Origin: Cyanidioschyzon merolae
Lineage: Eukaryota
DNA: 64,000 nt
Direction: 5' to 3' (one strand)
Assembly (NCBI GenBank): GCA_000091205.1
Contig: AP006493.2
Shown: one piece after another, positions 6,696-48,000 of the stretch
How the letters are laid out: every line of letters starts with the position of its first letter
How positions within the stretch are numbered: the first letter of the stretch is position 1
Translations under genes and position numbers: made by a program
The notes under the pieces: model-generated
Seen by the model: only the letters and a program-made list of their open reading frames with translations
Database searches by the model: none
What the model was told of the DNA's origin: nothing

Positions 6696-6855
6696 GCAAG
6701 CGTTTCCGATTCACCTTAGTAGCTGCCCAGCGGAACGCTGTCGCACAGGGCACCTTTGTGACGAACGGATAATGCGTCGGTGTCCAGTGCAGCGTCGGAC
6801 AGGCGCCCATCGAAGCATGCGATGCGTTAGCGTACTGCTCGCCGGCCGGCAAGAC

Positions 6856-17439: not shown

Positions 17440-17760
17440 ATGTTCTCGTAGAAAGATTATGGAGCATGCCACAGGGTCTGAAGTTTCTACACTCATGCTA
17501 CGAACCGCGGTTTGGAGACACGGAGGCACAATACGTCCGCCTCTGTTGAGGATTGTGATGCATTGACTACCCCGCTATCGATGACGTATGAAACGCGAAT
17601 GCTTCCAACAGCAGCGACGGGTGCTCGTCTTGCTCAGTCAAACTTCCTTCAGATGCAATGGTAGACCTGGATATGGGTACTCAAAAAAAGGGAAAACCGC
17701 TGTTTGTAAAGGAAAGACACGCGAAAATGCCGAGAATATCATCCGTCGCAGCCATTCCAT
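17440..17760 (+). repeat. Diverged dispersed repeat (family R2), copy 1; boundaries approximate
   Basis: Blocks such as cacagggtctgaagtttc and gatgcaatggtagacctggatatgggtactcaaa align with 28140-28440 (cacaggatgtgaagtttc and agaaatggtagacatggacatgggtactcaaa). Confidence 0.35.
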
Positions 17761-20478
17761 CGCATAGGCACCTCTGAATCGCCAACTAGATAGGATCCTT
17801 CAAGACATCATCCTTCGTTGAAGCATTCTTCGCGGCTTCTGCCTCGCACATACCTCTGTCCTGCTGTTGGACAACGTCGCCGTCCATCGCGAGAAAAAAC
17901 CCGGTCAAGGCATACGCAGCTGTGATTGGCGTTGAGCTGCTGATAGCACCAGCCTATGCTCTTTGGTTCAATTGAGTCGAAGGCGTCTCGTCGGTTGTCG
18001 AACGCAAGGTCAACGCGCACGGTCCAATAGACGAGTCGTTCGCATTCGCGTAAACGAATGGTGCGGGACGCCACCAGGGACCGTATAGCGTCGTACGCGA
18101 GGAGTTCTCGCCTAGCTTCTATCGCCCTGAAGCACCTCGGTAAGGAAACGTTCGTGAGCGTTACGGACGGAAGGCTGCACGCTGTGAATATTCCTATGGA
18201 ATTTTTGGATCGGCCCGACGTGCGACAGCACACTTGATGCAGGAAGTGAAGATGCGATGCAGTAGGGGGGTAGGACCAGGGATTGGCGCAGGTGCTTCCC
18301 AGAATAACTTGACACGTCACCACGCGACGTCGAAGATCGAAAAACCTAGAATGCATATGCGAAGTGCCATCAGACCAGGTTCAAGGATGCAAAGCGTATG
18401 CAGGTGAATCCGGAACGCTTCCCAATGCGCACTCTCTAAGCATTGTACGCGGTGGACCCTCATTATCGTATCGCGACAGAGAGGGCGACTGTCTGCAGGG
18501 ATCCCCAGCTTATCGATGGAGGCAAGCGACGGCCTGGTGATGTCTAAAGAGCTCGCGGTAGTACTGAGTTCTGGTTCGTATCGTCTGTGCTCATAGGGTT
18601 GCTCTCGACCTCGGACCGCCGCACATTGCATCCAAAGGACAGTGGAAACGTGATACCCACGTTTCGTGGATCTCGCGCAAATACGTTTTCCTGAACAAGG
18701 CTCCTCGACGCGATACAGACTTCCTCTCTCGATCCGAGCGTCGTATCCTCCTCAAATGACTATGCGATGTGGCCCATATTTCGGGAGATTAAGGCCCATT
18801 ATACCGCCGTAGGCGATTACCTACTGCACTGTGGAGCTTCCTCGATGGGGTACGGCCTGTCTCTGGGTATAACAATGCTGTGCTCGACCGAATTCGTCAA
18901 ATGCGGTAGCGAAGCGCGTTTATGGACGCTCGTATACTGAAAAGTATCGGAATGAATTGTACACGGACGATGAATACCAGAGAAATCTCAGTCTGAATAC
19001 AGTTCGTAAAACCAAGGCCTGACTAAAACAACAAGACTCAATTTTCAGCGGTAAGTGCAGGGAAAGACGTGGTGATACGCGTGGATCCCTGGTTGAAGAG
19101 CATCATGGCCGTCGTGGTACCTCTATATCAAGAGTGCGGTTCCAAAGACCCGGCAGACAAACAGATCAAGCTCCTCGACTTGTTCTGAGTTCAAACTGAT
19201 CGAGATTCGGGCATCACAGACGCCGTGGTGCATACCAACAACTAGAGTAAAGACTTGGCATTCATCTGGGCGGGGTCAGACCCGTGTCGAGCATCGGACG
19301 ATGCTTTGTGCGCTTCATTGCAAGAGTACGTGAGCGTGCATACGGTTCATGCAGACCATCCCTAGCACAAGTACACCAGACCGCCTTGAGGTCGCCAGCG
19401 GTTTCCGTTCTACGGAGGCATGAAGCGTGCTTTCGCGAACTTGTTCAATCAATTGGAAAACAAAATTACCGACGATTTGCTTCGTCTGGCGGCGGCTTCT
19501 CGCCCTTGACATGCTGCACTCCTGATCCTTCGACGAGAGCGTAGAGCGAATGCAGGACTCGATGCCCTACGTGTCCCGTCGAGGCATCACGACGACGTCA
19601 ACGCATCACGAGCACGGCTGCACGCTGAAACTGATGGGCGAGAACAGCATGAGAAAGAGACGGATACACGAGCTGGTGCACGTTGAGCAAGCCGAACGTC
19701 AGCTGGCGAGGTTATCGAATGTAAGCAGCTTGCTATGGCGTGATTCTACCAGCGACCGTGCGCGCAAGCACTTTCTGCCCCTGGACTTGAACACATCCCT
19801 CAACGTCTAGAAAAGCGTCGCGCTGCTGGAGCGTCCGGCGTTCTAGTGTCCAGCGAGCTTTTCAGACACGGAATCGTTTCGTCGTTTCTATAGACATTGT
19901 GCTGAAATGCCGGCGACTAGAAATGGAATAAACCAGTGTTCAGAAGAGAGGACACTGGCTTTCCGTATTGAGTAAGGCATTGGTGGGCCATGGTCCAGCG
20001 ATCGAGAAATGCTGAAGCGTGGTATACTTACTCCGGGAACATTTCTCCAAGGCAATTGATGAATGTTCATGATCTCCCGCGATTCGGTATTACTGAGTAG
20101 AGCATGCCCACGCGCTGGCGCTGTAGCTAGGTGCCTGTAACGAAGAGAGCGCCGTCGCTCCCGTTATCTTTGCCAGCGCTCCAGATCACCTGATACCCCT
20201 GATTTCCTGCATACCAATCTACAAAACGTCTCTTTTGGCGCAGAAACCTATTCGACTATATCGAGGTTTTGGTGTGGAAGCAAAACGTATCCGCGTCCAG
20301 AACTGACGCATGGACATCGATTGGGTTCCAAGCGTACGCGCAACACATGGACAGCGTTTCGTTGCTCAGGCACGATACGAATCCAAAACCGCGTACGCAT
20401 ACCGAGGATATCTTGGGGATGCGCGCTGAGGCAGCGGCTGCACTTAATGCACTCGGCACACATAACAGGAGGCTTCAA

Positions 20479-27425: not shown

Positions 27426-28139
27426 GAACCCTCTATCGGGTCTCGGTGTCTGTCAGCAGCGCTCGTGACGGGTACACACGTTGAAGCGTACGCTCCTCGA
27501 GGCTGAGGTCCCTCGCACACAGAACTAAAAAACGCTACCAATGGAGTTCCGGAACTGTTCCGCGGTCGACGGACGCTTGCGAAGCGCTAACCAAGTTCTT
27601 AAAGTTGAAAATGAACCAGCATGAGCGCTGTGAAACAACGGGAAGCCCACTGGCCAGCCCTGGACTCGAACGAAGCCTAAACGCTACCGCAAGCACGTCG
27701 ATGCAGTTCGATCGCTACAGAAGTCGCTCCCGTTAACCCCAAACTCGACGGTTACTGCTATCCAGCTGGACTTTCTTGCGTTGGCGCAACGTGAGCTGCC
27801 TCATGAAGCGCAGCGTTTTGATTGGAACAGTCATTTCGGGAACTCTTGGATCAGCGTCCGCTTCTTGTTTGTTTTTTTTGCTCGCTGGTATTCGATTACA
27901 GGAATGTATCTCTATAGATTGGAGAAAAAGTTGCGAGAATACTTAACGCTGTTATGGCGAGCGCATGGAAAGCGGCATGATTGGAACAAGTCCGGTATGC
28001 TAGGGTGACCATGGGGCTGAACCACGCTTCGTAATGCCCTAATCCTGAAAGTGATGCGCCCTGAACAGCGCTTGTACGACACAATCTACATCAAGCTGCC
28101 CTTATCAATCCATCGCATATCACAAGTTCACTAAGAAAT

Positions 28140-28440
28140 ACGATCAAAGAAGGCACAGGATGTGAAGTTTCCGTTCCGTTGATGCAAACGTCGATGAAGA
28201 GCCGCGGGTTGTCGACGAATCAAGCACGATTGTATGAAATACCGTCGCGCGTTGAACAGTACTCTGTCGATTTCGTCATGAGACAGGAACGCTTATTACA
28301 GAAGGAACAGCTTCCGTTTCACTCGATGGGACTTTATCCAGAAGAAATGGTAGACATGGACATGGGTACTCAAAGAGCGGCAGCACGCTGCTCGAAGAGA
28401 CGAGGCAATCGAGGATTCCGACGACATCTGCACGAGCTGC
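28140..28440 (+). repeat. Diverged dispersed repeat (family R2), copy 2; boundaries approximate
   Basis: See copy 1 at 17440-17760. Confidence 0.35.
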
Positions 28441-29036
28441 GATGCGATCGTGTGGTCGCCTCCAAGTCGCCAAAAGAACAGGATTGATCGAGGCCTTGTC
28501 GTTCCTCGAAGAACCCCTCGTGGCATGCCCTTCCCATATTCTTCCGTCTAGCGCTTAGACATCGTCGCGTTCCATCACTAAAAAACGATAAGAGAGCAAG
28601 CGACTGAGATTGACGCTGAGAAGCTCTGTGCCAGCGTATGCTCTCAGTTTCAGTGCAGTTGAAGGCGGCTTTACTGTTGTCTAACACGATTTCCATACGC
28701 ACTGACCCATAACGAGGTCTTTCGCGTCCGTAACACCGCTCTTTGACAACGTGTTCTTCGGCAGGTTTTCCTCTACATTCACCGCCCGTAAATTGCTTTG
28801 TTGCTTGACTGGACGTGGGCGGAAGGCAACGGAGAGGCGTGCTGGGGTTCATTGGCCTCTTGGCGATAGATTAGGTGATGGTAATGTACTTGACGAATCG
28901 TAGATACGTATGTGGAAAAATCGAGTTTCAGTGCCATCGTGCATTCGTATGCGTCAGAGTCGCTGGGAAAACAAACGTAGAGAGAGCCTAGCGGCCGTAA
29001 ATCTTCGATCCCGCCACATAAGTAAAGACGCGAAGA

Positions 29037-29478
29037 TTGAGCTAGTCTCTGAGAGCAAGTATGAGACGTTCAAGCTACCTCACGACGATACTTGGCGGAG
29101 ATCGTGCAAGGTGCCTGGGTCACGCGGTGGAGTAAATACGAAATCTCATGGACGATAAAGACTGGTAGAACCTCAAGATGTATGCACTCTGTGAGACCTC
29201 GGAGAGTGCCCAGCAACCAGGCACATTTTCAACCGATCAACAAGACGAGGAAAATCGAGCGCATTGCATAGCACTCAGTGTAGGCATTGCGCTGAAATGC
29301 TCCAGACATGCGATTCAAATGAGTTGCTAGAGCAGAGCCGCCACAGGCTTCGCGCCTCAAGCAGGACACTAGTAAAGAACGGTTCAGCAATCTAGAACAG
29401 CTCGAGCGTCGCGTACCTACTCCGGAAAGGGTTTCTTATGCGATAAGCAGTCGGCCATGGTGCTCCACGATTCTATAC
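29037..29478 (+). repeat. Left arm of a ~445-bp inverted repeat pair
   Basis: Reverse complement matches 37953-38395 with about 10 mismatches by eye, from gctagtctctgagagcaagtatgagacg to gtgctccacgattcta. Similarity ends abruptly on both sides. Confidence 0.85.
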
Positions 29479-29904
29479 GACTGAATGTAGCAGGGAAGCA
29501 CATGCTACCAGGGAAAGCTCCAAAGTCCAATGAAACGATCATTACGAGCGCTGCCGCGTTCGCTCAGAACATTTCCCAAACGTGGTTCGAATGAGCTGCC
29601 GCTCCCCCGTAGCTGACCCCAACAAGCCGTCCTCAGTTGCCGCGAGAGCAGGACCTCGCGCTCACGCAGATATATGTATGACAATCAAGATGAAGATGGA
29701 GCCTCTGAACCTGTCCAATTCAGACGCTCGTGAGAAATTCCAAGTCAGATGATAGCAAAGCGTTTTCCTTGGGATATGCAGCCGGTTCCATCATAGCACC
29801 AGCCGCTTCTTGCTCGCGAAACCGTGTAATCGTTGTTGAAGATACTGGTACACGCTAGATTGCGGCAGTTTGTATATACAAGTTCATACCAGTGCGCATG
29901 CTCA

Positions 29905-31968
29905 TCAACGATCGTTATCGTCGGCTCGAACAGGATCGATCCACCAGCGGCTCGCATTGTCTTTGCGATCCTCGATGTGAATCGCACCTAGTCGAAACAA
30001 AATATCATCGCGCAACATATCACTCAAACCGTAGAGTGCCTCGGTGGCCTTCTGCGTTGGCTGTGCTGTATCCTGCCGTAGCTGCTTTGCGAGGTTGCGA
30101 ATACGCATACGAAAGTCAACCAGTGCCGCGATAAACGCTGTCGGCACGCGTGATGCAGATGCCTGCGCGTTTGCACTTGAAACTCCCGGAATGCTCTGAA
30201 AGCCCAGGAGACGCAAGATACTCGCGAGGTACTCGCTAGCGACAAGCACTGCGTTGTGCTCTACAGCGTCCATGCGATCAAGGCGACGTCCGCTTTCGAA
30301 ACGATACAATTGGTTGGTGAATTCTACAAGAGCCCGCACAGCTCGCGGAAAGTCGAGGTCATCCGCAAAGGCTTCTGCGAGTGCCCGGTGACATCTCTGA
30401 GACCATTCCGCGAGTTGTGCTGGGACTTTGCGTCCGGTTGGATTCCTCGGAATCGCAGCTTGTGTATGACTCGAGCTAAAGACATCCGGCACTGCGTCAA
30501 CATCGGCAACATGTTCACCAGAAGCTACAGCGAACGACGGCTGCCAGTGCGTGCTCGGAATGTCTCCCTCTATGGATGCGTCCGCAGTTGCAATGGACTC
30601 TTGACCAGCGACACTGAGAGCTCTAGATGACTCTTTGCGAGACTGCGAACGCGCGTCATTGGCTATTCGAGCCAACCAGCCAGTCAGTCGATCCCAGATA
30701 CGTGCCGCCTGCAGTCGCTGCGTGTCACCGAACTCAACCGGAGTGCTGTGTCGATGCATTGCACAGAACATTCGAAATACGTCCGCTTCTCTGCGTATGC
30801 GCATCAAGTCATTCGGGCCTTGTTCGCTCCATCCCAAATAATCCCTAATGCGCCTGGAGTTGCCACGTGATTTGGCCATTTTCTCTCCTCGAATCAGGAG
30901 CGTGCCTGTGTGCATCCATTTTCGGCACCAGGGGCGTACCCGGTGATAACACTCGCTCAGATGCAATTCATTCTCATGATGAGGAAATCGCAAGTCCATA
31001 CCGCCGCTATGCAGGTCGAGATGTGTACCGAACACATGGGCACACATTGCGCTGCACTCAATGTGCCAACCTGGTCTGCCGTAACCAATGCGTTTCTGAT
31101 CATCATTGGCACCATCTGGTACGTAAAAAGGCCAACCAGGCTCCTCGTCCGTTGCTGAGACGGCCTTCCAGAGCGCAAAGTCAGCAGGATGGCGTTTGCC
31201 AGGGACGTTGTCGGCCGCTGGTGTGTTTGCGGCGGTTTCAGTGGCGGTACCGGCATGACTCGCGTCAAGCGCCCGACTGGCATCAAGAACGCCGTACCGA
31301 GACTGGACACGACTAGTATCAAAGCAAACGTCTCCTGATGTGGTTACATAGGCGTATTCCGTATCGAGTAGCCGCCTTGTAAAGGCGCAGATCACCGGTA
31401 TATGCTCGCTAACCCGCAGAATATGAAGCGGCCGCAGTACTCCAAGCAAGTCGAGATCTTCGAAGAAACGCTTTTCAAAAATAGCGGCAATTCTTGAACA
31501 CGTTTGTCCAATGGACTCGTTCGGTAGTCGTTGCTGGCGAGCCCGCTCGATGATCTTATCATCGACATCCGTCACACTCATTGCAGTTATTGGCAAACAC
31601 TGGTACCATTCCCGGATGACACGACGCACCATATCGAAGGTAACATAGGTTCGAGCGTGTCCTAAGTGAGCGTCATCGTATACAGTCGGGCCGCACTGAT
31701 ACCAGTAGAGCGGTTCACCGAGAGCTGGCAGCCACTGCAGGCGTCGCTCACCTGGCAGCGTGGATGCCGCGCTCGTGCCAAGTGGGGTGTTTGTCGGGCT
31801 GAAGCGCCGCACCAACGTCAAGTGGTACGGCTTTCGATGCCACAGGCGGGGAACTCGCACACGGGGCATTGCTCGTAAGCAGATGACGACGACGACGACG
31901 ACGCGGGAACGGCTTCCAGCGTGAAGCTCACTCCGCCTGAGCGCCGTTGCCAGCCTCGACGAATGCAA
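29905..31968 (-). CDS. Cysteinyl-tRNA synthetase (class I) with an N-terminal extension
   Basis: HIGH region WYQCGPTVYDDAHLGHARTYVTFDMVRRV. Zinc/Cys-binding GWHIECSAM. KMSKS as KMAKSRGN. N-terminal ~90 aa are R/S-rich and include VVVVVV encoded by a (GAC)n repeat at 31889-31909. Confidence 0.9.
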   Translation of the reverse strand: MHSSRLATALRRSELHAGSRSRVVVVVVICLRAMPRVRVPRLWHRKPYHLTLVRRFSPTNTPLGTSAASTLPGERRLQWLPALGEPLYWYQCGPTVYDDAHLGHARTYVTFDMVRRVIREWYQCLPITAMSVTDVDDKIIERARQQRLPNESIGQTCSRIAAIFEKRFFEDLDLLGVLRPLHILRVSEHIPVICAFTRRLLDTEYAYVTTSGDVCFDTSRVQSRYGVLDASRALDASHAGTATETAANTPAADNVPGKRHPADFALWKAVSATDEEPGWPFYVPDGANDDQKRIGYGRPGWHIECSAMCAHVFGTHLDLHSGGMDLRFPHHENELHLSECYHRVRPWCRKWMHTGTLLIRGEKMAKSRGNSRRIRDYLGWSEQGPNDLMRIRREADVFRMFCAMHRHSTPVEFGDTQRLQAARIWDRLTGWLARIANDARSQSRKESSRALSVAGQESIATADASIEGDIPSTHWQPSFAVASGEHVADVDAVPDVFSSSHTQAAIPRNPTGRKVPAQLAEWSQRCHRALAEAFADDLDFPRAVRALVEFTNQLYRFESGRRLDRMDAVEHNAVLVASEYLASILRLLGFQSIPGVSSANAQASASRVPTAFIAALVDFRMRIRNLAKQLRQDTAQPTQKATEALYGLSDMLRDDILFRLGAIHIEDRKDNASRWWIDPVRADDNDR
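31889..31909. repeat. (GAC)7 microsatellite, in-frame within the CysRS N-terminal extension (poly-Val on the minus strand)
   Basis: gacgacgacgacgacgacgac. Confidence 0.8.
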
Positions 31969-32289
31969 CGAGCAACCAGGAGCGCGACCTCTGCAACTAG
32001 AGAAACACGAGCTTTTAACGTTTCAACGGCAGAATATGAACATAAGCAGCGTGAATGTGAGTGTTAGGCAGTACAAGTCTGTGTGCTCGCAGAGACAGCC
32101 TCAGCTGAAACAGCGCCTTTGAATAAGCAGGTAAGTTGCATCTCATCAACGCGTCGTATCTGCGAAGTCTCATCCGGCGATGTACACCTGGTTCATCGTA
32201 TCCTTCGGCAGCGTTCTTGTTATCGCCAGTGCATAATCCATCTAAACAGATATTTTAGTCAATGGGTTCCCCACCTGGGCACATGCAGT

Positions 32290-33761
32290 AGTCATTGTAT
32301 ATGTCATTCTCATGCGTTTTTTACTTCCATCTGCGACATGTATCGTCTTTCAACTTAGTTTCGCGTCAACCCCCGCTGCAGTATACAGCAGGAGATCGGT
32401 ATCGGGATGCAATGTATCTTAGCGGTCCAATATGCGTCGTCTATCGCATATATCCTTTACGGAACAGTACCGGAATGACTGCATTCCTTATTCAGGTCAG
32501 TCATACCTCAATATTCTTATGATTGAGGAACACCTATAGAAACAAGTACATGCTTCTCATGTCAAAACCGATATTCTCATAGCTTGCTTGCGGTCTCTGG
32601 TATATAAACGACTCGTTGATCACCGTGCGGAAAACAAAAGCGACGATCGTAGCCACTAAAGGCGTCTCTGTTTCTCAACAGTACGTTCGCGTGGTCCTGA
32701 AAACACTGGGGTACAGTTGCAAAAAAGGGTTCTAGTTCTTGCACAGCCATCCCTAACCGAAATCGGTACTACTGCAGTATTCTTGGAACGTCACGATCGT
32801 TCTGAAGAAGAGAAGATTCGGTTTATTTTTCAGTCGACGAGACCTTCTTCGAACGAGACAGTTGGAGCTTGTATGGGTATTCGCGGAGTAGGAAGCCCGT
32901 TCTACGTACAATCGAGCTCGACGAGAACGACGGCATTCTCTGTTCTAGCTGTAGTGAGCTCATTTGGCCGCCTCAGTTTCGCTAGTAGAGAAGGCTCATA
33001 CACCAGCATCAACCCCTTTGTCGCATCATTGAAGACTTTTCCCCGACGCTCGGCGACGTCCTCTCACAGGACACCGTGCATTTGAGAATTCTCGTTGCGT
33101 TCGAGCGTTCACCGATGGTATCGGGGCAGAGCTGCGTATCATGCCCCCGTACATGCCGTGCTTCATTCCTATCAAAGGAGTCTTTTCGATCGTTGCATTT
33201 CATGATAGCTGCACTCTTCGATTCGCTGAAGCGTTCAGCACACAATGCCACACTAGGGCGCATTTCGTGTTTCTTCCGCACGTTCATCTACCTCAGGGAA
33301 CGTCCTCACCTAAGGCCATAACAGAGAACGTTTATTTCCAAATAAAAAAATCCAAGGAACGAGTTAGAGTGTGCACCTCAGAAAGTCGACATGGAGAGAA
33401 GGCCGCCGAACGCTTCGGGGATAGAAAAGCACAGAGAGCTGACACAGTCGCAAATGCCCCAGAGGGCCCGAGTTCGAGGATTCCTTTCATCGGAGCGTTC
33501 CACCAGCTGCAATGAATGCATCAAGTTCGTGAACCGAGACTTGTAGCTGCTTTCAATATCAGACGATATGCGGTGCTGAAGACGAGGCCCGTAGAGCTGA
33601 CGAGATACAAATCTATGGAGCAGCTTCTCATGCTCGAAGCTAACAAGGAGAAGCCCAAACAGATAGCAAACGGCCAGTCCAAAATGACGCGGGGGTGTCT
33701 GTACGTCGGTATTCATTTACTACCCACCATCGTAGGATGATCATTCGTTTTATCGATGACG
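32290..33761 (+). mobile_element. Fanzor/TnpB-like element copy C, an internally deleted (non-autonomous-like) derivative that keeps the leader and the 3' part
   Basis: 32290-33000 aligns to the copy B leader (51610-52330). 33170-33761 aligns to copy A 2230-2945, including a RuvC-III remnant KFVNRDL / VAAFNIRR split by a frameshift at 33523-33570. About 1.4 kb of the nuclease core is missing. Ends ...tatcgatga at 33759. Confidence 0.55.
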
Positions 33762-33807
33762 TTCTTCGCCGCCAGAAAACCTCTGCCTCTGTTGCCGTCC
33801 AGTGGCG

Positions 33808-34884
33808 ATGACCAGTTCCACTGAAAAGTTACAATCAACAGAGCAACCGGGGCAAGCAAAGCTCCGCGTACAAAAGCGAGAACTGGGTCAGACTGGCTTA
33901 CGAGTTTCTGTTGTAGGCTTCGGAGCATCGCCGCTCGGTGGCGTTTTCCGTGAGGACATCGACGAAACAGACGCCTGCGCTGCCGTGTACCAGGCTCTGC
34001 ACGACTTTGGCATTAACTTTTTCGACACTTCTCCGTACTATGGAAGTACTCGGTCGGAACGTGTCCTCGGAAAAGCGCTCGCACAACTCGGTGAACGAGA
34101 CGACTACGTTCTCGCGACAAAGGTAGGCAGGTACGGCCCGAACAACTTCGACTTTTCCAAGGAACGTGTTCGGCGCAGCGTGGAGGAATCCATGGAACGC
34201 CTTGGTGTTCGGCGCTTGGACCTGGTTCAGTGTCACGATGTAGAGTTCGCACCGTCCAGACGTTTAATCGTGGAGGAAGCGCTCCCGGCCCTGTGCCAGC
34301 TGAAACAAGAGGGGGTTATCGGCGCACTCGGCGTAACGGGTTATCCTTTAGCTATCTATCGCGACATTATCGAGGCCAGTACCGTGGAGCTTGATGTCGT
34401 GCTAAGTTACTGCCATGGATGCCTCTGTGATACGTCGTTACGCGATAGCGGCGTGCTCGCGTACCTCCGAGAGCAGAACATTGGTGTCCTGAATGCATCT
34501 CCGCTTAGTATGGGGTTATTGACGCCGGACGGTCCACCTGCATGGCATCCGGCACCACCTGAACTCAAAGCGTGTTGCCGAACTGCTGCAGCGTGGTTAG
34601 CAAGTCAGCAAGTGAATGCGGGTATATCCACAGACCTGGCAGAGGTTGCGTTGCAGTTCGCGGTCCAGCGATTCGCTCAGGACGACGTGGCGAGCACCCT
34701 CGTGGGCATCGATGGCACGATAACACTGAGGAAGAACATGCAGGCCTTGGCAAAGCCTCTAGACGATATGCTCCTGAAGGGCGTCCAGGAGATCCTCAAA
34801 CCAGTTCGGAACGTTGGGTGGGAGTCTGGACGACCGCGTTCCGAGTGGCTGGAAGCTGCACCAGGGGTCCGAGAGTCTGCCTAG
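33808..34884 (+). CDS. Aldo-keto reductase closely resembling plant L-galactose dehydrogenase
   Basis: LGQTGLRVSVVGFGASPLGGVF, INFFDTSPYYGST, QCHDVEFAPS, VLSYCH, NASPLSMGLLTPDGPPAWHPAPPELKAAC, TLVGI and ILKPVRNVGWESG track the L-GalDH sequence motif by motif as I recall it. First ATG at 33808 (the track start at 33802 is GTG). Confidence 0.7.
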   Translation: MTSSTEKLQSTEQPGQAKLRVQKRELGQTGLRVSVVGFGASPLGGVFREDIDETDACAAVYQALHDFGINFFDTSPYYGSTRSERVLGKALAQLGERDDYVLATKVGRYGPNNFDFSKERVRRSVEESMERLGVRRLDLVQCHDVEFAPSRRLIVEEALPALCQLKQEGVIGALGVTGYPLAIYRDIIEASTVELDVVLSYCHGCLCDTSLRDSGVLAYLREQNIGVLNASPLSMGLLTPDGPPAWHPAPPELKACCRTAAAWLASQQVNAGISTDLAEVALQFAVQRFAQDDVASTLVGIDGTITLRKNMQALAKPLDDMLLKGVQEILKPVRNVGWESGRPRSEWLEAAPGVRESA

Positions 34885-35135
34885 CGAGCTCAAAATCCGA
34901 CTCAATGTTTGATGGTGAGGTCGCGTTACGCAGGCCAAGGAGCTCACATGAGAAGGCTCGCTTCGTTCCCATACGAACATTCAAGGGTCTCGTTCGACGC
35001 GAGCGCTTCCAGCAGGCTCCTGGAACCCAAATGCATGTATAACATGCTCGAATAGAGCGAAGGCAATGCGTTTACGGGATCAGAGGGGGTTCAAAAGCGG
35101 CCTCTAAGGTCGGGCTCGCAGTGCGCGTCAGCACA

Positions 35136-37652
35136 CTAGTATTCGTCCCCATCGCTGGTGAGCGACTGCTCCGTAGAACTTTCATCGCTCCCGTTCATTT
35201 CATACTGGGGAGTGGCGGGCATCATGGCGTTTGCATGGTCATGGATACTCATCGAACTACCTCCGTCCAGAGCGGTTGTTGCTGTTGCTGCAGGGTATGG
35301 CGCTTCGAGTCCACCACTCTGGGCATACGGCATCGTGGACGGGTGCCCCGAAGCCGGTACTCCAGCGCCGTTGTAGAGCGTACGCCCCTCGGTACTACCA
35401 GCGGCGAAATACGGAGAGGACGCTGCACCAAGGTGCTCCACGTCCCGTTGCCGTTGCGCGTTTGCTGCAGCTTTCCGGGCGCGCTCCAGTTCGTGATTCA
35501 ACTTGAGCAGCATTCGGTTGATCGACGCGACGCGTGCACCCGCTGCCGTAGGGCTCATCGTTCGCAGCGGATCCAGGTCTCGACCGACAGGGCGCAAGCA
35601 TTCATTACAGAACGCCTGCAACTCACGCAAAGTCTCATTGCTGGCCTGTTGAATATTCATTTCATACTCGCCGGAGCTCGCGCGCGTCAAGAGACCGGGT
35701 CGAGAACCGAATAGCTCGACAAGACGACGCAGCTGCTGGCCATCGAGGCGTCCTATGTCTTCAGCCAACTGCGCCATTTCCTGTTGAGTGACTGGCACTT
35801 TGGCGAGACTCGCAATAGCATCGCGGCTCGGTAAGCCGCCCGCGGAAACCGGAGGAGATGCGGCGACACCGCGTCCGCTTGTCGACGCCGTTGATAGCAA
35901 CGCTTCGGCTTCGCGTTTCTCTTTCTGCAAGGCGGCCAGTCGCTGCTCGAGCTCTCGAACTCGCTCGAATGGATCCATTCGCTTCCTAGATCGACGCACG
36001 GGCGTGCCTTCATGAGGGCCCCGCTCGTTGGCTCCGCTAACGTAGGATCCATATCCTGGGGCCTCGCCAGTGTACGGTCTTTGGGAAGCATTTCGGCCGG
36101 TCGAACGCCGTCTGCGTTCTGTGTTGCGTGCGAGTGCGCTATCAACTCCTCCTCGTCGCGCCTTTGCCGCATGGCTGCCTTGCCGAAAAGCCGCTGCCAA
36201 GCCGCGCTGTCGTTTCCTGGCTGCAGCTTGTGAGACGGCATGGTGACTCGTACTGTGCGTTGACTGTATTTCTCCGGGCGGTGGCAAAAACTGCATTTTG
36301 CGTTCGAATGCTTCGTTCAGCATTTTGGCGATGTTATAATACTCCGAGTCTGGGGGGTTGTAAGTCATAGCATTCGACCAAACGAGACGGACGTCCCGTC
36401 GAAAAGCCTCCGGATCGGTGCCGTACTCGCCGCTCTCTAACTTTTGGCGAACTGTCCCCAAATCCATGGGCTGCTTAATGATCTCGAAATAGTCCGGGAT
36501 GGCATCCGGATTCCAGAGCTTATCAACTGGAAGCAGAAAAGCACGCGCCTCTTTCATTTTCATAATTTCTTTGAGGACCCGAGCACAGAATCGCATTTGA
36601 GGGAACCGTCGCAAAATCGTCGTACCATCGAGCCGCTCGCCTGGTTGTTGCGAAAACCGCTGACTCGGGGTGCGCAATCGTCCCGATGAGGATATTGTCG
36701 GAGAGCCCAGGGTTCCACCAACGACTCCTTGGCCTCCTGTACTGGGACGCGGCCCCTCTGAGGCAGCATCGGTCGAGTGCACTTGAGAATGCGCACCTTC
36801 ATTCTGCTGAACCGCTGTGTCGAATGAGGACGTTTTGCCTTTCGAGCGGTTGGTATCAGAATCAGTAGGCATGTATACTGCGCCGGCTTGGTGCCGAGCC
36901 AGCACAGCTGCCATAATTTGGCGGCTGTGGATATCGATAATCCGCCGTCGCTCCTCTTGGAGCGCTTCCATACGTTGGAGAAGTTCGTCGTGCAGTTTCG
37001 CTCGTTCTTCCCGGTCAGCCGGGACAAAGTCCGCGGATAGCGTGCTCTGCTCCCCTGCGTCCTTCTTAGAGGTCGACACCGGCTTGTTCGGTAACGACGG
37101 TGCTGCAGCGCGCTTGGGACGGGGGCGCAACGAAATCCCGCTGTGCTCCTCGGGTGTGGAGCCGTCCGGAAGCACGGGCGCCACGCTCGGCGTCCTCGTC
37201 TTTGCCGTCCCGATGTTGGGGTCTGCGGCCTGCAACTGGTTGGTTATGTCGCTCTGGTTGCCGTGGTTTTCCGCTGCGTGGCTTTGGCCAGTGGGCTTGC
37301 CATTCACGTCAGTGCGCTCGCTGCCTTGTACTTGCGCAGGGTCTACCAGGCCCTCTTTCAACTCTTTAGAGACAGCTTCTGTTTCGCTCGCTACCGTTTC
37401 GTGAAGCCCTGGCCTCACCGGTGGATTCAGTGCGTTGGGGACGGAAGCTAGCGCAGAAGATTCCGAAAACGATGATGAGGCGTCCTCCGACTCCGTGGAC
37501 GGGGTGCCTTGCGCGCGCACAGCCTGTGCGGTTTGCGGCGCGGCGTTCTGCTGTTCCCCCAACCCAACCATGCTACTCTTCCCCTGTGCCCCGTCTTCCA
37601 TCCTGCGGGAGAGCAAGCGATCTTGACCGCTCTGCGTCCCAGAACTGCGCAC
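35136..37652 (-). CDS. BET/GTE-like chromatin reader: one bromodomain plus a C-terminal ET domain, long low-complexity flanks
   Basis: Bromodomain LLPVDKLWNPDAIPDYFEIIKQPMDLGTVRQKLESGEYGTDPEAFRRDVRLVWSNAMTYNPPDSEYYNIAKMLNEAFE. ET-like EYEMNIQQASNETLRELQAFCNECL. Confidence 0.75.
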   Translation of the reverse strand: MRSSGTQSGQDRLLSRRMEDGAQGKSSMVGLGEQQNAAPQTAQAVRAQGTPSTESEDASSSFSESSALASVPNALNPPVRPGLHETVASETEAVSKELKEGLVDPAQVQGSERTDVNGKPTGQSHAAENHGNQSDITNQLQAADPNIGTAKTRTPSVAPVLPDGSTPEEHSGISLRPRPKRAAAPSLPNKPVSTSKKDAGEQSTLSADFVPADREERAKLHDELLQRMEALQEERRRIIDIHSRQIMAAVLARHQAGAVYMPTDSDTNRSKGKTSSFDTAVQQNEGAHSQVHSTDAASEGPRPSTGGQGVVGGTLGSPTISSSGRLRTPSQRFSQQPGERLDGTTILRRFPQMRFCARVLKEIMKMKEARAFLLPVDKLWNPDAIPDYFEIIKQPMDLGTVRQKLESGEYGTDPEAFRRDVRLVWSNAMTYNPPDSEYYNIAKMLNEAFERKMQFLPPPGEIQSTHSTSHHAVSQAAARKRQRGLAAAFRQGSHAAKARRGGVDSALARNTERRRRSTGRNASQRPYTGEAPGYGSYVSGANERGPHEGTPVRRSRKRMDPFERVRELEQRLAALQKEKREAEALLSTASTSGRGVAASPPVSAGGLPSRDAIASLAKVPVTQQEMAQLAEDIGRLDGQQLRRLVELFGSRPGLLTRASSGEYEMNIQQASNETLRELQAFCNECLRPVGRDLDPLRTMSPTAAGARVASINRMLLKLNHELERARKAAANAQRQRDVEHLGAASSPYFAAGSTEGRTLYNGAGVPASGHPSTMPYAQSGGLEAPYPAATATTALDGGSSMSIHDHANAMMPATPQYEMNGSDESSTEQSLTSDGDEY

Positions 37653-37952
37653 CGCAGTCCGCTACAAAGCGAAAGTTACTGTAAGCGTTAAAGATGCACA
37701 AGCACGGACGCCGCTGAGGGCATGTGCGCGAACCCTGTCTGCTTTATACATAAAATTCAAGGATCAATGCTTGGACTCGGCGCGCGATCCTGCGATCACC
37801 CGGCGATGAGGGCGGGAAGCACACTATTTGTGACAAGATAGAACACATATGTATATACCAACCCTGTGGAGAGTCTCCGCAAAGCATTCAGGTACGGCCA
37901 CGCTCCCCCAGCGACAGCTAAAGTATATGCTTGTTGCACGTATATACCGTTG

Positions 37953-38395
37953 TGTAGAATCTTGGAGCACCATGACCGACTGCTTATCGCATAAGAAACC
38001 CTTTCCGGAGTAGGTGCGCGACGCTCGAGCTGTTCTAGATTGCTGAACCGTTCTTTACTAGTGTCCTGCTTGAGGCGCGAAGCCTGTGGCGGCTCTGCTC
38101 TAGCAACTCATGTGAATCGCATGTCTGGATCATTTCAGCGCAATGCCTATACTGAGTGCTATGCAATGCGCTCGATTTTCCTCGTCTTGTTGATCGGTTG
38201 AAATTGTGCCTGGTTGCTGGGCACTCTCCGAGGTCTCACAGAGTGCATACATCTTGAGGTTCTACCAGTCTTTATCGTCCATGAGATTTCGTATTTACTC
38301 CACCGCGTGACGCAAGCACCTTGCACGATCTCCACCAAGTATCGTCGTGAGGTAGCTTGAATGTCTCATACTTGCTCTCAGAGACTAGCCGTAGC
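37953..38395 (-). repeat. Right arm of the ~445-bp inverted repeat pair (partner of 29037-29478)
   Basis: Reverse-complement identity with the left arm; see that feature. Confidence 0.85.
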
Positions 38396-40411
38396 TCACA
38401 GTGACGGTCGCGCACGACACAAGTGCCTGCGGTATTATAATGGGCCCTATTCGGACATATAGGGACAACGTTCTATTGACGCTTGAGAGGGGTGGAGCGT
38501 TCGGATTCGGGCTGCGCTTTTGCTTGTCTCTGGCATGTATACTTTAGGAACACATAGAAGCGCAAGACGCAAGGCAGACAGGGAGACATTCACTGTGTTT
38601 CGGGCATGCGATGGATACGTTGTCCGTCGGCTCGTGTCCGAGAGCAACTCGATATGTCTGGATGATATAAAGCGAGTCTCGCTCTCATTTGCGGATATCG
38701 TCCGAACTCGTTACCAAATCAATCTCTTCCGCCGACACCTCGTTATTTGTCCCGATCGACAGCCCATGAATGCCTTCCATCCGTCCCAAATTTTCTGCGC
38801 CCGTCCGGATAGGCCACAACGGATGCAACGCCCATAGAATGCGCTCGACGTTGACCCACACATGGTTGAGGTTTCTGAGGTTCATCTGATAGCTTCTGTC
38901 ACCTGTGCAATAGATTTTTGGGGTCGCAAATGTGGTACGGCGACCTGCCGAGGTATGTTGGGAATCTTGCAGGTAACACGCTGGCCCTATAATCAGACGG
39001 CCTCGCGTCTGCTATCCCGCGCATCAGTTGTGTTGTTGTACTAGGCTTGGATCCAAAAATCTCTGAGGAATATGCTCAGCCGGCTGCCCTGCATCTGGTA
39101 CCCGTGTGAACACTTGCTTACGAGATTTTCCAAGACGAGAAGAGCTAGGGGAGCCTTCCTGGCATCATGTGGTTTACGATCCCCAACGACGTCCTGCGTT
39201 TTGCTCTTTGAAACATTCACCCCGTTGACCTGTTTCATTAATGAAGGTCTTCACTGCGGTTCAGACCGATCTTTCCGCTCCGTGTGTCTTCGCTCCCTGT
39301 TCTTCCTAGTTCGCTTTTCGGGGGAATTTTTCTCTTCTTCGACCGATGGTTTCCGTTTCTTCTCCTTTAGCTCGCGGGGTGGCATGAGTGGGTTCGCTTA
39401 ACACCATACCCATTTTGTTTCCCCGACGGATTCATACGCATTGCGTGGAAAGCACAACGGAAGCTCACATTGTCTGTATACGTACACATCAACTATTCGT
39501 TGCGTCCCCTTTGATTATCTTCTCTGTCGCGAGCACGCTCCGGCACCGGGACGCGCTTTTCCGCTCTCTCCCGCACATGCGCAGAGCATCAGCAGAGTAG
39601 TTCAGGGTTGTCGACGACAGAGTACGATTTCCGGAACACCAGTGTCACGCATGTGAACAACTCGTCTAATGATACTTGAGCGAAAATATCGAGATTCACA
39701 GTGCTGAGGACGCCTTCGACGAGGCTGAACTAGGGAGAACAGACCGGCAAGAAGAACAGCTTTCCGCCAGTCTCATCTGCGTCATACTCGACCATTTTCT
39801 ACACAAAAAAGTCAGTGCCGGCTACAATCAGGACTCAAACGTATGGGAAGGGGCTGCCACGAAGTGCTTCCAGGTAGGCTGAGGTGTCAAGCGATCCTAT
39901 TCGTCCAGCACTTCGTGGGCGAGCACACGATCGCATCACAGCTCTGACTCGTGTCGTTGTCCTTCTCGATAGTCTCTTCTTCACCAACAGCGGGTTGTCT
40001 CTCTACGAATACGCATATGCGTCTCTGCCGTGTTTCCCAAACCAAGTTGCACGGGAGCACAACGTCCCTGCTTGGGCTTTCTGTAACAGCTACGCTACAA
40101 GAATCAATTCGGTGGCACTGCATCCCAGGCTTCAACCCGAAATCTTCAAAGAATTGAAGAGTCTTCTACCTGCGACCATGTGTTTCCAGATAATCCTACA
40201 GTTTTCGTTTCCACCTTCGCTGGCACCAGAGCCCGAGTTCTCCGCATGGCACCCACTGAAGACCCTATGAGCATCGAAACCGTTCTTCGCTTGAGAGTGA
40301 GCGCGCGCGAGTACGCCATACAGCGTCCACAGTCTCGTACTGTCTTTTGCAACTGGCTTCCGCTGCGACCTCTGTTGGCTAGGAACGAGCGTCACGAGTT
40401 TTATGTACTGA

Positions 40412-45046: not shown

Positions 45047-48000
45047 TGGTGCAGCCGGTCCTGGTTCGCGCCAAAGCGTAGCTAGATCTTTTGCATTCAC
45101 AGGACTGGTATGCTTCAGCTCATCGCGAGGTTTGCGCAGTGCTCAAGGACCACAGAGGACCTTGGTGTGCGTTAGTGATGCTTTGCGTGCATCTCGTCTT
45201 TTGGACTGGAGCCTTTTTCTGGGACGGACAGCCTCGCTGCATCAATGTTGCTGTTGAGCGGAGCAATCCGTGGCACACTCTGGTCTTGTATGATCGACGC
45301 TTGTAGGCAGGTCTCCTCTCGTGGTGCCAGCACGATCGCCGAGGGCACTTCAGCAACAAGGTCGTCTATTTCGTGGCGGTATTCTCGAGCACTCGACAGG
45401 ACCCGATAACTTGTTCCTGATACCGACACCCTGCTTTCCTTAAGCACATGCTCGTTTTTGAGAATGCGACATCTGCGTCTCTGGTGCTTTTTCGTGCAAT
45501 GTAGAATCTATGCATCTGTCGATAATTTTGCTCTGGAAATGCGCGCTCCGGCGTGGTGTTGATGCTGGTTAACAGGATCCGGTTTTTTATGTTGCAAAAT
45601 AAATGAGTCTGACCAGAACTCCACGAAGGTGCAATTGCTATTGCTAATCAGGCTAGACAACAGTGTCGCTCGTCAGGCACGCCCACCTTACCCAAACCCA
45701 GACCTGGATTTTCGTCGGGATTAGAGACGAGAACGATACCGTAATTCTTCGGATGCATGGTTACGTCCAGTGCGTGACGCTGTAATAGCAGTTTTATCTG
45801 GGTCCGCCTAGTCTCCTGCAGTCAACATCCGCTCACAGGGACCTGGTGTTCACCATCGCTCGCTCATTGCCCGAGACGCTCCGAGTGTATTGGCGAGCAG
45901 GTTTCCCCAGCATACATGTGCCAACCGCAATGCTCGTGAATCCACCGCCACAAGTAGATCAAGTGCAGCGACCTGGAGATCATCCTGCTCGATGAGCGAT
46001 GCTCCATTTTCAAGCTGATGGATCGCGATGGCTTGCTTTCTCGTTTCTTCAAAAATGTTAGGGATCGCTCGCATCTCGCTTTTGTTCAAACGAATGCCGT
46101 ATGCTCTGCATTATCCCGGATGAGCTAAGACGGGTTCCAAGCAGTCGGGTAGGCGCGTGTGCGTCTCCTGGGGTCCTTGGAAGATGCAAAGGCGCAAAAT
46201 CGCTCCTGCAGCGAAGCACGGTTGGTGACATTCATGTCCTTGCGCACGAAAGAGACGCACAAACCTGCAACGCCCTGGATACAACCCTGCTGCACAATGC
46301 TGAAACGTCCTGCTCTTGAACTCGAGCCGATTTCGTTGTGGCAATTGGCAACCCGGGTCCGCCTGAACGCAAGCAGCATTGTTGTTTCTCGACACTGCGG
46401 GATCAAGCTTCGAGTCGTGCTTGATCGACCATTCGGAAGAGCACAATGAGTGCGAACCAATCTGGCTGCTTGTTATCGAATCTATCGATCTGGGCATTCT
46501 ATCCAGGTCGTGCTTCGATTCGCAACCTGAGCGATTTGCTGAAAGAAAAGCGTCAGTTTCAGCGCACCGAACGAGAAGGGCAACGCATCCCAGATGCTTT
46601 ATACACACGGAATAATATCGAATAACGGAACACCGTTGTCGATCAGGTATTGCCCAGGAAACCCGTTCCAGGAGTGTTGATAAATAGACAACATTCGAGC
46701 CTTTCTGAATTTCCGGACAGTGCCACATCAGCTCCTGCGCTCATTCATGAAGCCAATACCCTCTATCCTGGCCACGAACGTTTCTCTCGCAAAGCTTCAG
46801 ATTTTCAGGGCAATGCCTGTGCTGCGTACGAAACCATTGCATGGAAAGTTCGCTCGACACAAAACTTCTGGACGCTCCGGACGCAAGAGATACTTCCAGA
46901 TATTGATTGAGGCATTCAAGTACAGGTGCAGAAAGTGCTTGTGTGCTTGGTTACTAGATGAATCACTACGTAGCAAGCCTCTCACTATCGTTTTCACCGC
47001 CATTTGACGTTAGCTCACATTACTGGACACCATACCTCGCATCCATCGCTATCTCACGCTTCCCTGTTCTACCAGTTTCAACATGCACCCGTGCTCTTGC
47101 TGCGTGTATGTCGTCTTGAAGCCATTGACGGCACTCGAGCGATGCCGATTCCCGCATTCGTTGTATGCTCTCGTCGATAGCGGAGGAGGTTTTGCTAGCA
47201 CGTTACAAAACGTCCAGTTCCATAGATTACTTTAAAAAAGACATGATTCATACCTCATTTCCATTTCAAAATCATTACAGGAAACGGAGAATAATCGGTT
47301 CTCGCCTCTGTACAACTGTAACTAGTGACGACACAGACACCGTCGTACGCTCTCCTGCCCGAGATCACCTGCATGAGCTATTTGAACACTCAAGTACATC
47401 CGGGATGAAGTACACAACGCACTTATCTCTGCTTGATAAGCTGCCCAGAGTTTCTAAATCGGCCTTGAAGTCGTCATACCGCCAGGCGGTATGCCTCCTG
47501 GCAACCAGAATGACCGACTCCAGATGATACAACGCTTTGGAACAAGAGCGCTGCTTCATCTGCTGTACATTCAGGTTGATGGATCGGTCCTCATGCGTTA
47601 TCGCGTTGGCGACGGTCGTGGTATTCATAGTCCCGGGATCCACGCTCATAACAAGTCGTTCTCTTGATCTGGATTCAACCCTTTTGAAAATGAGTCTTCG
47701 TGCTCAATTCAGACCTAGATTTTACAATGAATATGTAGAACGATATTCCATCCGCCCCTATGGTCCATGTAAACAAGAAAACTAAAACGAAATTCACCCA
47801 CGCGCTTCGCGAACTTGTGCCAATGCTTCGTGCTCGCTCGTCGAAACGAACACCCTCTTCTTTCCCTTTGCTCGGCCGGATGGTATGGATTTGGTCGTCG
47901 TACCTTTTTTTCCGTATGTTTGCCTTGTGATTCAGATGCACGAGACCAACGGTGGCAATGAACCTTGCCTTTTCTACGTATGTTTGTACCTGCAACGATT

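What the first reader, a model, noticed from the sequence alone, without database searches (positions are those of the whole stretch)
29037..38395. About 445-bp near-identical inverted repeats bracketing an 8.5-kb block with CysRS, Fanzor-like copy C, L-GalDH and BET genes
The arms 29037-29478 and 37953-38395 are reverse complements with only about 10 mismatches by eye and sharp edges. No ORF lies in the arms. They could be two copies of a dispersed non-autonomous element in opposite orientation, the TIRs of a large composite transposon that captured host genes, or a substrate for inversion of the block. The high identity implies recent origin or gene conversion.
Basis: seen in the sequence. 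Interest (0 to 1): 0.55.

Follow-up and report, generated by a model that had tools for sequence, protein, structure and literature searches.

The report
Homogenised tips of two transposon relics

Summary
Arms 29041-29489 and 37941-38389 are 449-nt reverse complements (96.4%; 97.5% over the 435-nt core), with no ORF longer than 59 aa lying wholly inside an arm. The window is Cyanidioschyzon merolae 10D.

The 8.5-kb block was not captured. Two related cyanidiophytes have the same gene order and orientation (GTPase, CysRS, L-GalDH, BET, 1,500-aa gene), with short spacers and no arms.

Each arm is the 3'-terminal part of a decayed 1.7-3 kb transposon relic. Four relics lie in the window (c1-c4) and a fifth (c5) lies elsewhere in the genome. 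They are about 58-62% identical to each other. Some retain remnants of a Fanzor1 ORF distantly related to the published CMe-1A element.

Only the stretch that is collinear between c2 and c3 is near-identical. It runs from a 1-kb indel to about 20 nt before the element's end. c2 also shares a separate 495-bp, 98.8% tract with c5.

In 26 arm sequences (8 left, 18 right; 24 from metagenome contigs, some from the same contig) the arms differ by only two fixed sites. Four sites are polymorphic in both arms.

Best explanation: ectopic gene conversion between old relics. No convincing inversion was seen. Interest is low.

The parts
29041..29489 (+). Left arm: the 3'-terminal part of relic c2. It consists of segment D' (29041-29281, shared at high identity only with c3) and segment E (29281-29492, shared by all family members at about 60%). 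The high-identity core is 29041-29475.
37941..38389 (-). Right arm: the 3'-terminal part of relic c3, same D'+E structure. The high-identity core is 37955-38389.
27811..29494 (+). Relic c2, a decayed Fanzor1-type element with segment structure A+B+D'+E. It lacks segment C (the N-terminal half of the Fanzor ORF) and most of D. It fills the GTPase-CysRS spacer, which is 2.5 kb here and 0.6-0.9 kb in the relatives.
28126..28620 (+). Second high-identity tract inside c2. It is 98.8% identical to relic c5, which lies at another locus (NFACT-PSD...HisG; L025 6665-7159). The neighbouring parts of c2 and c5 are only about 57% identical.
37941..40064 (-). Relic c3, structure A(part)+B+C+D'+E. It retains N-terminal Fanzor remnants (CMe-1 aa 14-78, 162-258 and 245-359; the best tblastn hit has E 4e-07). 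It fills the spacer between BET and the 1544-aa gene, which is 2.8 kb here and 0.38 kb in the relatives.
17124..20104 (+). Relic c1, the longest copy, structure A+C+D+E. It carries a decayed Fanzor ORF (CMe-1 aa 68-123, 425-568 and 606-689; E 2.5e-15).
46613..49033 (-). Relic c4, structure A+B+D+E. It carries the decayed C-terminal half of the Fanzor ORF (CMe-1 aa 426-697; E 3.8e-18).
29905..31968 (-). Cysteinyl-tRNA synthetase host gene, in ancestral synteny.
   Evidence: PF01406
32360..33734 (+). Internally deleted CMe-1A (Fanzor1) copy C. The 3' part (33361-33710) is 69% identical to consensus positions 2739-3092. The 5' part (32360-32900) resembles the sequence upstream of copy B.
33808..34884 (+). 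L-galactose dehydrogenase-like aldo/keto reductase, 100% identical to C. merolae 10D BAM80572.1.
35136..37652 (-). BET-family bromodomain protein host gene, in ancestral synteny.
   Evidence: PF00439, PF17035

Best explanation
The two arms are the in-register 3'-terminal segments of two ancient, decayed copies (c2 and c3) of a Fanzor1-type transposon family. The two copies inserted independently, in opposite orientation, into two intergenic spacers of the Cyanidioschyzon merolae lineage, on either side of a block of host genes that was already there.

The copies have otherwise diverged to about 58% identity. The arms are near-identical because sequence has been copied non-reciprocally between them by ectopic, intrachromosomal gene conversion, recently and probably repeatedly.

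The identical tract covers exactly the stretch over which c2 and c3 are collinear. On the outside it stops where c3 carries a ~1-kb segment (C) that c2 lacks. On the inside it stops about 20 nt before the end of the element.

Shown: the family, the synteny, the in-register position, the tract boundaries, a second such tract with a different partner, and the population pattern. Inferred: that the mechanism is homologous gene conversion, and that identity persisted in an 'island' that never escaped conversion while the rest diverged.
For: 1) Synteny. The same gene order and strands occur in two relatives, only coding DNA aligns, the spacers are 0.4-0.9 kb instead of 2.5-2.8 kb, and there is no family or Fanzor sequence there.

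2) Family. Copies c1-c4 in the window are 57-62% identical pairwise, with E-values down to 1e-69. They share a common 3' end. Fanzor ORF remnants relate them to the published CMe-1 protein.

3) Step in identity. c2 and c3 are 58.6% identical over 638 nt (c2 28349-28975, ending 66 nt outside the arm), against 96.4% inside the arm.

4) In register. The motif at the arm start, GCTAGTCTCTGAGAGCAAGTATGA, recurs at the homologous place in c1 and c5. It follows segment C in c1 and c3 and segment B in c2 and c5. D' aligns collinearly with c1 18855-19105 (z about 3). Segment E of the arms is only about 60% identical to E of c1 and c4, so there is no family-wide constraint.

5) The last ~20 nt of the element (29476-29494) are only about 62% identical between c2 and c3, and the differences there are constant in all contigs read. 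Each copy therefore kept its own tip, which a fresh insertion would not do.

6) c2 is a mosaic. A separate 495-bp tract (28126-28620) is 98.8% identical to c5 at another locus, with about 57% identity on either side.

7) Population. In 8 left and 18 right arm sequences there are only 2 fixed differences in 435 nt. Mean identity is 99.0% within left arms, 98.7% within right arms and 97.8% between arms. Four sites are polymorphic in both arms where 0.38 are expected. All four allele combinations occur at pairs of right-arm sites.

8) The arm has no TIRs, no TSDs and no RNA-structure signal. Only the two loci were found by a 23-mer scan of metagenomes and by an ORF search.
Against: Homologous conversion cannot start between sequences that are 60% identical. 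The model therefore needs either uninterrupted conversion since the copies were young or a single unusual founding event, and neither is shown.

c2 and c3 share the ~790-bp internal deletion (D to D'), yet they belong to different structural subgroups (c2 groups with c4 and c5 in lacking C). This requires that the deletion itself was transferred.

The population haplotypes come from metagenome assemblies, which can blend strains or the two arms. Contig L021 shows that mis-joins at these repeats do happen.

Most right-arm polymorphisms with one left-arm-like allele are also expected after a simple recent duplication.

The complete 10D genome could not be searched, so further copies of the arm are not excluded.
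Confidence: 0.68

Rival explanations
1. Recent transposition. c2, c3 and c5 are young insertions of mosaic non-autonomous elements that share a young 3' module. On this reading the arms are two independent recent insertions that happen to face each other.
For: Bao and Jurka (PMC3627910) report module sharing between C. merolae elements: the 5' 635 bp of CMe-1A is 95% identical to TE-N2_CMe. Internally deleted derivatives exist, such as copy C. The inner edge of each arm lies close to the element's 3' terminus.
Against: The last ~20 nt of the two elements differ at the old family level. Each high-identity module was found at only two loci. All sampled strains carry both copies. CMe-1A, the youngest family described, is about 80% identical to its consensus, so no recently active family is known.
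Confidence: 0.12
2. A single microhomology-mediated template switch or DSB-repair event (MMBIR or SDSA plus end joining) copied about 435 bp from one relic into the other. No ongoing homologous conversion is involved.
For: Short identical strings sit at both edges: TGAGCTA outside and GATTCTA inside. This avoids the problem of homologous recombination at 60% identity. Two fixed differences are compatible with one event slightly older than the sampled population.
Against: A random templated copy would not be expected to land exactly in register at both ends. The same kind of tract occurs a second time with another partner. Four sites are polymorphic in both arms where 0.38 are expected.
Confidence: 0.12
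3. The arm is a functional sequence, such as a regulatory element or non-coding RNA (for example a Fanzor guide-RNA scaffold), kept similar by purifying selection.
For: Segment E is the 3' end of a Fanzor-type element, which is where omega-RNA scaffolds are encoded in characterised TnpB and Fanzor systems (general knowledge). The right arm lies in the upstream region of BET.
Against: There is no Rfam match. Folding energy is no better than for shuffled sequence (z -0.03 and -0.68). E is only about 60% identical to E of c1 and c4. The right arm has high nucleotide diversity (pi 0.013, against 0.003-0.007 in the adjoining parts of c3). The Fanzor ORFs of this family are all decayed. The two arms sit in non-equivalent gene contexts: 3' of CysRS and 5' of BET.
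Confidence: 0.04
4. The arms are the terminal inverted repeats of an 9.3-kb composite transposon that captured CysRS, L-GalDH and BET.
For: Geometry only: near-identical inverted repeats bracket the genes.
Against: The block and its neighbours are in the same order and orientation in two relatives without the arms. There is no TSD. The arms are internal parts of larger relics that extend outwards by 1.2 and 1.7 kb.
Confidence: 0.01

Closest known systems
CMe-1A, the Fanzor1-carrying transposon of C. merolae (Bao and Jurka 2013, Mob DNA 4:12; PMC3627910)
   Same: Same host. Similar size of about 3 kb. A single TnpB-like Fanzor1 ORF occupies most of the element. No TIRs. Internally deleted derivatives exist. 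Relics c1, c3, c4 and c5 give significant tblastn matches to the CMe-1 protein, in the same order along the element.
   Different: Nucleotide similarity to the CMe-1A consensus is limited to patches of 57-69%, and protein identity is 24-40%. This is an older, separate lineage, not CMe-1A. Genuine CMe-1A copies in the window (1-2917 and 52327-54482) are 80% identical to the consensus. No member of the old family seen here has an intact ORF.
Concerted evolution by ectopic gene conversion between dispersed or inverted repeats (for example yeast Ty and delta elements, palindrome arms of sex chromosomes, duplicated genes with conversion islands)
   Same: A patch of near-identity with abrupt borders is embedded in otherwise diverged paralogous sequence. 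The borders coincide with structural heterology. One copy is a mosaic with different partners. Polymorphisms are shared between the paralogues.
   Different: Here the partners are non-functional transposon relics in a very compact, haploid algal genome, and the surrounding divergence is extreme (about 58%). Conversion itself was not observed directly.
Invertible segments or inversion polymorphisms bounded by inverted repeats
   Same: A 449-bp inverted repeat at 96-99% identity, 8.5 kb apart, is a plausible crossover substrate.
   Different: All contigs spanning both arms show one orientation, which is also the ancestral one. There is no site-specific recombinase nearby.

Membership tests
Fanzor1 / CMe-1-type transposon (relics c1-c5) | Encodes, or retains remnants of, a TnpB-like Fanzor1 protein in the element's own orientation | tested here: met
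   tblastn with the CMe-1 protein gave: c1 E 2.5e-15, c4 E 3.8e-18, c3 E 4e-07 for the N-terminal half, c5 E 5.5e-10. c2 has no significant remnant because it lacks those segments.
Fanzor1 / CMe-1-type transposon (relics c1-c5) | Belongs to the described family CMe-1A (about 80% identity to the consensus) | tested here: not met
   Only patches of 57-69% identity to the 3169-bp consensus were found. This is a distinct, older lineage.
Fanzor1 / CMe-1-type transposon (relics c1-c5) | No terminal inverted repeats and no recognisable target-site duplication, as reported for CMe-1A | tested here: met
   There are no TIRs in or around the arms. The copies share a 3' end but no shared flank motif was evident. 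The 5' ends are poorly defined.
Composite transposon with captured genes | The bracketed block is absent from, or differently placed at, the orthologous site in relatives | tested here: not met
   Order and strands are identical in L001 (Cyanidiococcus yangmingshanensis) and in L002-L004.
Composite transposon with captured genes | Target-site duplication immediately outside both arms | tested here: not met
   The flanks are ...GAAGATTGA| on the left and |CGTAGCTCAC... on the right (+ strand). They are not a direct repeat.
Young non-autonomous element (MITE-like) present as independent insertions | Own termini (TIRs or TSD) and many dispersed near-identical copies | tested here: not met
   No TIR or TSD was found. 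The 23-mer scan of metagenome contigs hit only the right-arm locus. In the natural strains read, the left arms carry a SNP at 29158 inside that 23-mer. The arm-ORF search found one cluster, all at the known loci or on the chimeric contig L021. The complete 10D genome was not searchable.
Ectopic gene-conversion tract | Near-identity confined to an in-register homologous stretch, with abrupt borders at structural heterology | tested here: met
   The outer border lies at the indel of segment C. The inner border lies about 20 nt before the element's end.
Ectopic gene-conversion tract | One copy is a mosaic with different donor copies | tested here: met
   c2 28126-28620 matches c5 at 98.8%. c2 29041-29475 matches c3 at 97.5%. 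The rest is about 57-60%.
Ectopic gene-conversion tract | Polymorphisms shared between the paralogues in a population | tested here: inconclusive
   Four sites are polymorphic in both arms (two with the same allele pair) where 0.38 are expected. There are only 2 fixed differences. However, the haplotypes come from metagenome assemblies and are not phased isolates.
Inversion-mediating inverted repeat | Both orientations of the block exist | tested here: not met
   Six contigs span both arms (L009-L012, L035, L036). Every other contig that spans one arm with both of its flanks, except L021, is also collinear with the window. L021 alone has an inversion-type junction, and it also switches locus inside the other repeat.

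The most novel reading that the evidence does not exclude
The arms are an active recombination substrate in wild C. merolae. Besides converting each other, they occasionally cross over and flip the 8.5-kb CysRS-GalDH-BET block. On this reading contig L021 (c2 outer flank, then arm, then BET-side flank) reflects a real inverted allele in a divergent strain and not an assembly chimera. That would be a rare structural polymorphism in a genome regarded as exceptionally simple and clonal.
Probability: 0.07. Interest if true: 0.4.

Novelty: new member of a known kind. Interest (0 to 1): 0.2.

Why it matters
It matters little beyond C. merolae genomics.

It shows that the 'unusually simple' C. merolae genome carries, besides the described CMe-1A family, an older and very decayed Fanzor1-type family. 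Together the two families make up roughly a quarter of this 64-kb window.

It also suggests that ectopic gene conversion can keep short islands of such relics 96-99% identical while the rest falls to about 58%.

For annotation, the practical lesson is that a striking inverted repeat around essential genes need not be a composite transposon. For people engineering C. merolae by homologous recombination, such islands are potential off-target or rearrangement sites.

Tried and rejected
- **Known RNAs.** Rfam (E-value mode on 27000-40500, gathering mode on the whole window) and ARAGORN found no known RNA or tRNA.
- **RNA folding.** Folding the arm on both strands gave no excess stability.
- **TIRs and TSDs.** A search in and around the arms found nothing meaningful.
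- **C. merolae 10D in the gene-position index.** Look-ups of the L-GalDH product (358-aa, P0001 and 360-aa forms) found nothing on record. A genome-wide copy count in 10D was therefore impossible. I used metagenome populations instead.
- **Is D' a foreign insertion?** I first suspected that the outer 240 bp of the arm (D') was foreign or unique, because local alignment to c1 and c4 was not significant. Semi-global alignment and the conserved start motif showed it is in register with c1 and c5.
- **Is the arm secondary in c2?** I first read the arm's junction with segment B in c2 as a novel junction, which would make c2 the recipient of a fragment. c5 showed that B followed by D is a normal structure in this family.
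- **Excess diversity as evidence of conversion.** I considered using the excess diversity of the right arm. The adjacent unique spacer is equally diverse, so I dropped that argument.
- **Contig L021.** I considered it as evidence for a third arm copy or for an inversion. The genuine c5 locus (L025) lacks a near-identical arm and continues to HisG (its own E segment matches c1 and c4 only at 57-59%), so L021 is best read as a double mis-join at two repeats.
- **RuvC-like match in c2.** A weak match just outside the left arm (E 0.21) was judged spurious, because that stretch aligns to the non-coding 5' region of c4.
Full report
**Observation**

The window contains one long inverted repeat: 29041-29489 and 37941-38389, 449 nt, 96.4% identical, 8451 nt apart. 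Reading both copies shows a sharp outer edge; both copies begin GCTAGTCTCTGAGAGC.

The inner edge is fuzzy. Identity is 97.5% over 29041-29475 (11 mismatches). It then drops to about 62% over the next ~20 nt. No ORF lying wholly inside an arm exceeds 59 aa; an 82-aa ORF (28910..29158) starts outside the left arm and runs 118 nt into it. No other repeat above 90% identity exists in the window apart from a tandem array at 6777-7335.

**Organism and context**

The L-GalDH-like ORF (33808-34884) is 100% identical to a protein of Cyanidioschyzon merolae 10D (BAM80572.1), on a record of 852,849 bp. C. merolae genes are almost intron-less, so long ORFs serve as a gene map:
- GTPase, 24099-27425 (-)
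- CysRS, 29905-31968 (-)
- L-GalDH, 33808-34884 (+)
- BET bromodomain protein, 35136-37652 (-)
- a 1544-aa protein, 40412-45046 (+)
- an acyltransferase, 49258-51279 (-)

**Synteny test**

Contigs carrying the L-GalDH orthologue were fetched from Cyanidiococcus yangmingshanensis (L001) and from another cyanidiophyte known from metagenomes (L002-L004; about 70% protein identity). They show the same genes in the same order and on the same strands. At the DNA level only the coding regions align, all collinear.

The GTPase-CysRS spacer is 0.6-0.9 kb in the relatives and 2.5 kb here. The spacer between BET and the 1,500-aa gene is 0.38 kb there and 2.8 kb here. Neither the repeat family described below nor any Fanzor remnant is present in those loci.

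The block was therefore not brought in by a transposon and is not inverted relative to the ancestral state. The arms lie inside lineage-specific insertions in two spacers. There is also no direct repeat outside the arms. The composite-transposon reading is refuted.

**What the insertions are**

Sensitive self-comparison shows that similarity continues outward from both arms at much lower identity. It also shows four copies of one old repeat family in the window, all intergenic:
- c1: 17124-20104 (+)
- c2: 27811-29494 (+)
- c3: 40064-37941 (-)
- c4: 49033-46613 (-)

Pairwise identities are 57-62%, with E-values down to 1e-69. The copies share a common 3' end.

Bao and Jurka (2013; PMC3627910) describe about 150 copies of a ~3.2-kb Fanzor1 element, CMe-1A, in C. 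merolae. It has no TIRs and no determined TSD. I took the consensus from their supplement.
- Window 1-2917 and 52327-54482 are CMe-1A copies at 80% identity, and 33361-33710 is a 3' fragment.
- The CMe-1 protein also hits c1 (aa 68-123, 425-568, 606-689; E 2.5e-15), c4 (aa 426-697; E 3.8e-18) and c3 (aa 14-78, 162-258, 245-359; best hit E 4e-07). All hits are in the elements' own orientation and order.
- The c family is thus an older, very decayed lineage of Fanzor1-type elements, distinct from CMe-1A (only patches of 57-69% nucleotide identity).

In terms of segments:
- c1 = A+C+D+E
- c4 = A+B+D+E
- c3 = A+B+C+D'+E
- c2 = A+B+D'+E

C and D carry the Fanzor ORF. D' is the first ~240 bp of D, followed by a ~790-bp deletion. 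E is the 3'-terminal ~210 bp. Each arm is D'+E.

**The step in identity**

Between c2 and c3, segments A and B are 58.6% identical and the arm is 96.4% identical. Segment E of the arms is only about 60% identical to E of c1 and c4. The near-identity therefore reflects recent common ancestry of the two arms, not family-wide constraint.

The arm is in its native register in both relics. Its first bases (GCTAGTCTCTGAGAGCAAGTATGA) recur at the homologous point of c1 (18855) and of a fifth copy, c5 (L025 7840). D' aligns collinearly with c1 18855-19105 (z about 3; 2-3 of 300 shuffles score as well).

In c3 and c1 this point is preceded by segment C. In c2 and c5 it is preceded by segment B. So the outer edge of the arm is exactly where c2 and c3 become collinear. 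The inner edge lies about 20 nt short of the element's end, and those last bases differ at the old family level. A freshly inserted fragment would have brought its own tip.

**A second tract with another partner**

A search with a small ORF from c2 led to a genuine fifth relic, c5, at an NFACT-PSD...HisG locus, seen in many samples (L025-L034). c5 is about 57% identical to c2 except for one 495-bp tract (window 28126-28620) at 98.8%. c2 is therefore a mosaic of old sequence with two short near-identical patches shared with two different relics. This is the classical picture of ectopic gene conversion.

**Natural populations**

A 23-mer from the arm found four metagenome contigs, and look-ups through L-GalDH variants found many more. 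All are 99.2-99.6% identical to the window.

Six contigs span both arms (L009-L012, L035, L036). Every other contig that spans one arm with both of its flanks, except L021, is also collinear with the window.

Across 8 left and 18 right arm sequences (435-nt core; two of the 26 are the reference arms and some loci come from the same contig):
- Only 2 sites are fixed differences (29068, 29414).
- 24 sites vary.
- Four sites are polymorphic in both arms (29096 and 29158 with the same alleles; 29118 and 29280 with a third allele), where 0.38 are expected by chance.
- All four allele combinations occur at pairs of right-arm sites such as 29096/29300 and 29300/29468.

Mean identities are 99.0% within left arms, 98.7% within right arms and 97.8% between arms, ranging from 96.3% to 99.1%. 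The 10D right arm is simply the most diverged allele.

There are caveats. These are metagenome assemblies. Most right-arm polymorphisms with one left-arm-like allele are also expected after a plain recent duplication. The diversity of the right arm (pi 0.013) is matched by the adjacent unique spacer (0.016).

**Contig L021**

L021 joins PSD-side sequence to c2 and then to the BET-side flank. It switches locus once inside the 495-bp tract and once inside the arm. The true c5 locus continues to HisG. I read L021 as a double mis-join at the two repeats. It is nevertheless the only sequence with the junction that an inverted block would produce.

**Other checks**

There is no Rfam family or tRNA, no excess RNA folding stability and no TIR or TSD. 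A functional-RNA or regulatory reading has no support.

**Mechanism**

I conclude, at about 0.7 confidence, that the arms are a gene-conversion island. Two independently inserted, inverted relics of an old Fanzor1-type family have exchanged sequence non-reciprocally over the only stretch where they are collinear, recently and probably repeatedly. That stretch is bounded by a 1-kb indel on the outside and by the element's end on the inside.

The weak point is how conversion operates between sequences that are otherwise 58% identical. Either the island has been converted continuously since the copies were similar, or a single microhomology-mediated copying event founded it. The second possibility is kept as a rival, alongside recent transposition of mosaic elements.

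**Verdict**

The feature is real and of an ordinary kind. It is a new instance of concerted evolution between transposon relics, plus recognition of an old Fanzor1-type lineage in C. merolae. Interest is about 0.2.

Noticed in passing
window 17124-20104, 27811-29494, 37941-40064, 46613-49033: Four decayed copies (57-62% identical) of an old Fanzor1-type element family, distinct from the published CMe-1A. They are arranged + + - - around the gene block. Together with three CMe-1A copies, they make roughly a quarter of this 64-kb window transposon-derived.
   Followed up: yes
window 28126-28620; L025 6665-7159: A 495-bp tract of relic c2 is 98.8% identical to a fifth relic (c5) at an NFACT-PSD...HisG locus elsewhere in the genome. 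The flanking parts of the two relics are about 57% identical. This is a second conversion-like island.
   Followed up: yes
L021 (JGI 3300050748, Ga0506615_00508) 4672-6584: This contig joins the c5 locus to c2 and then to the BET-side flank of the right arm. The last junction is the one expected if the 8.5-kb block were inverted. It is most likely a double assembly mis-join at the two repeats, but a real rearranged strain is not excluded. Its c2-specific part carries 7 private differences in 420 nt.
   Followed up: partly
window 1-2917 and 52327-54482: Two CMe-1A (Fanzor1) copies, each 80% identical to the published consensus, both with frameshifted ORFs. The window starts inside copy A, at consensus position 141.
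   Followed up: partly
L025 7246-7495; window 59-117: Relic c5 carries a nested fragment matching positions 4-255 of the CMe-1A consensus. This is the region that Bao and Jurka say is shared with TE-N2_CMe.
   Followed up: no
window 6777-7335: Tandem array with a unit of about 79 bp (about seven units; copies 61-98% identical). It overlaps a 182-aa ORF on the minus strand (6361..6909) and lies downstream of the 914-aa gene.
   Followed up: no
L005-L020, L022-L044: Many JGI, ENA and Logan metagenome contigs are 99.2-99.6% identical to C. merolae 10D over more than 20 kb. Close relatives of the laboratory strain are therefore well represented in environmental data sets and could be used for population genetics.
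   Followed up: partly
window 29096, 29118, 29158, 29280 (and mirror positions in the right arm): These four sites are polymorphic in both arms across natural haplotypes. Two of them are tri-allelic overall, which could also indicate mutation hot spots and not exchange between the arms.
   Followed up: partly
window 55153-55442: An internal 71-nt direct repeat (72% identity, spacing 219 nt) lies within what looks like an EF-hand (calmodulin-like) coding region.
   Followed up: no
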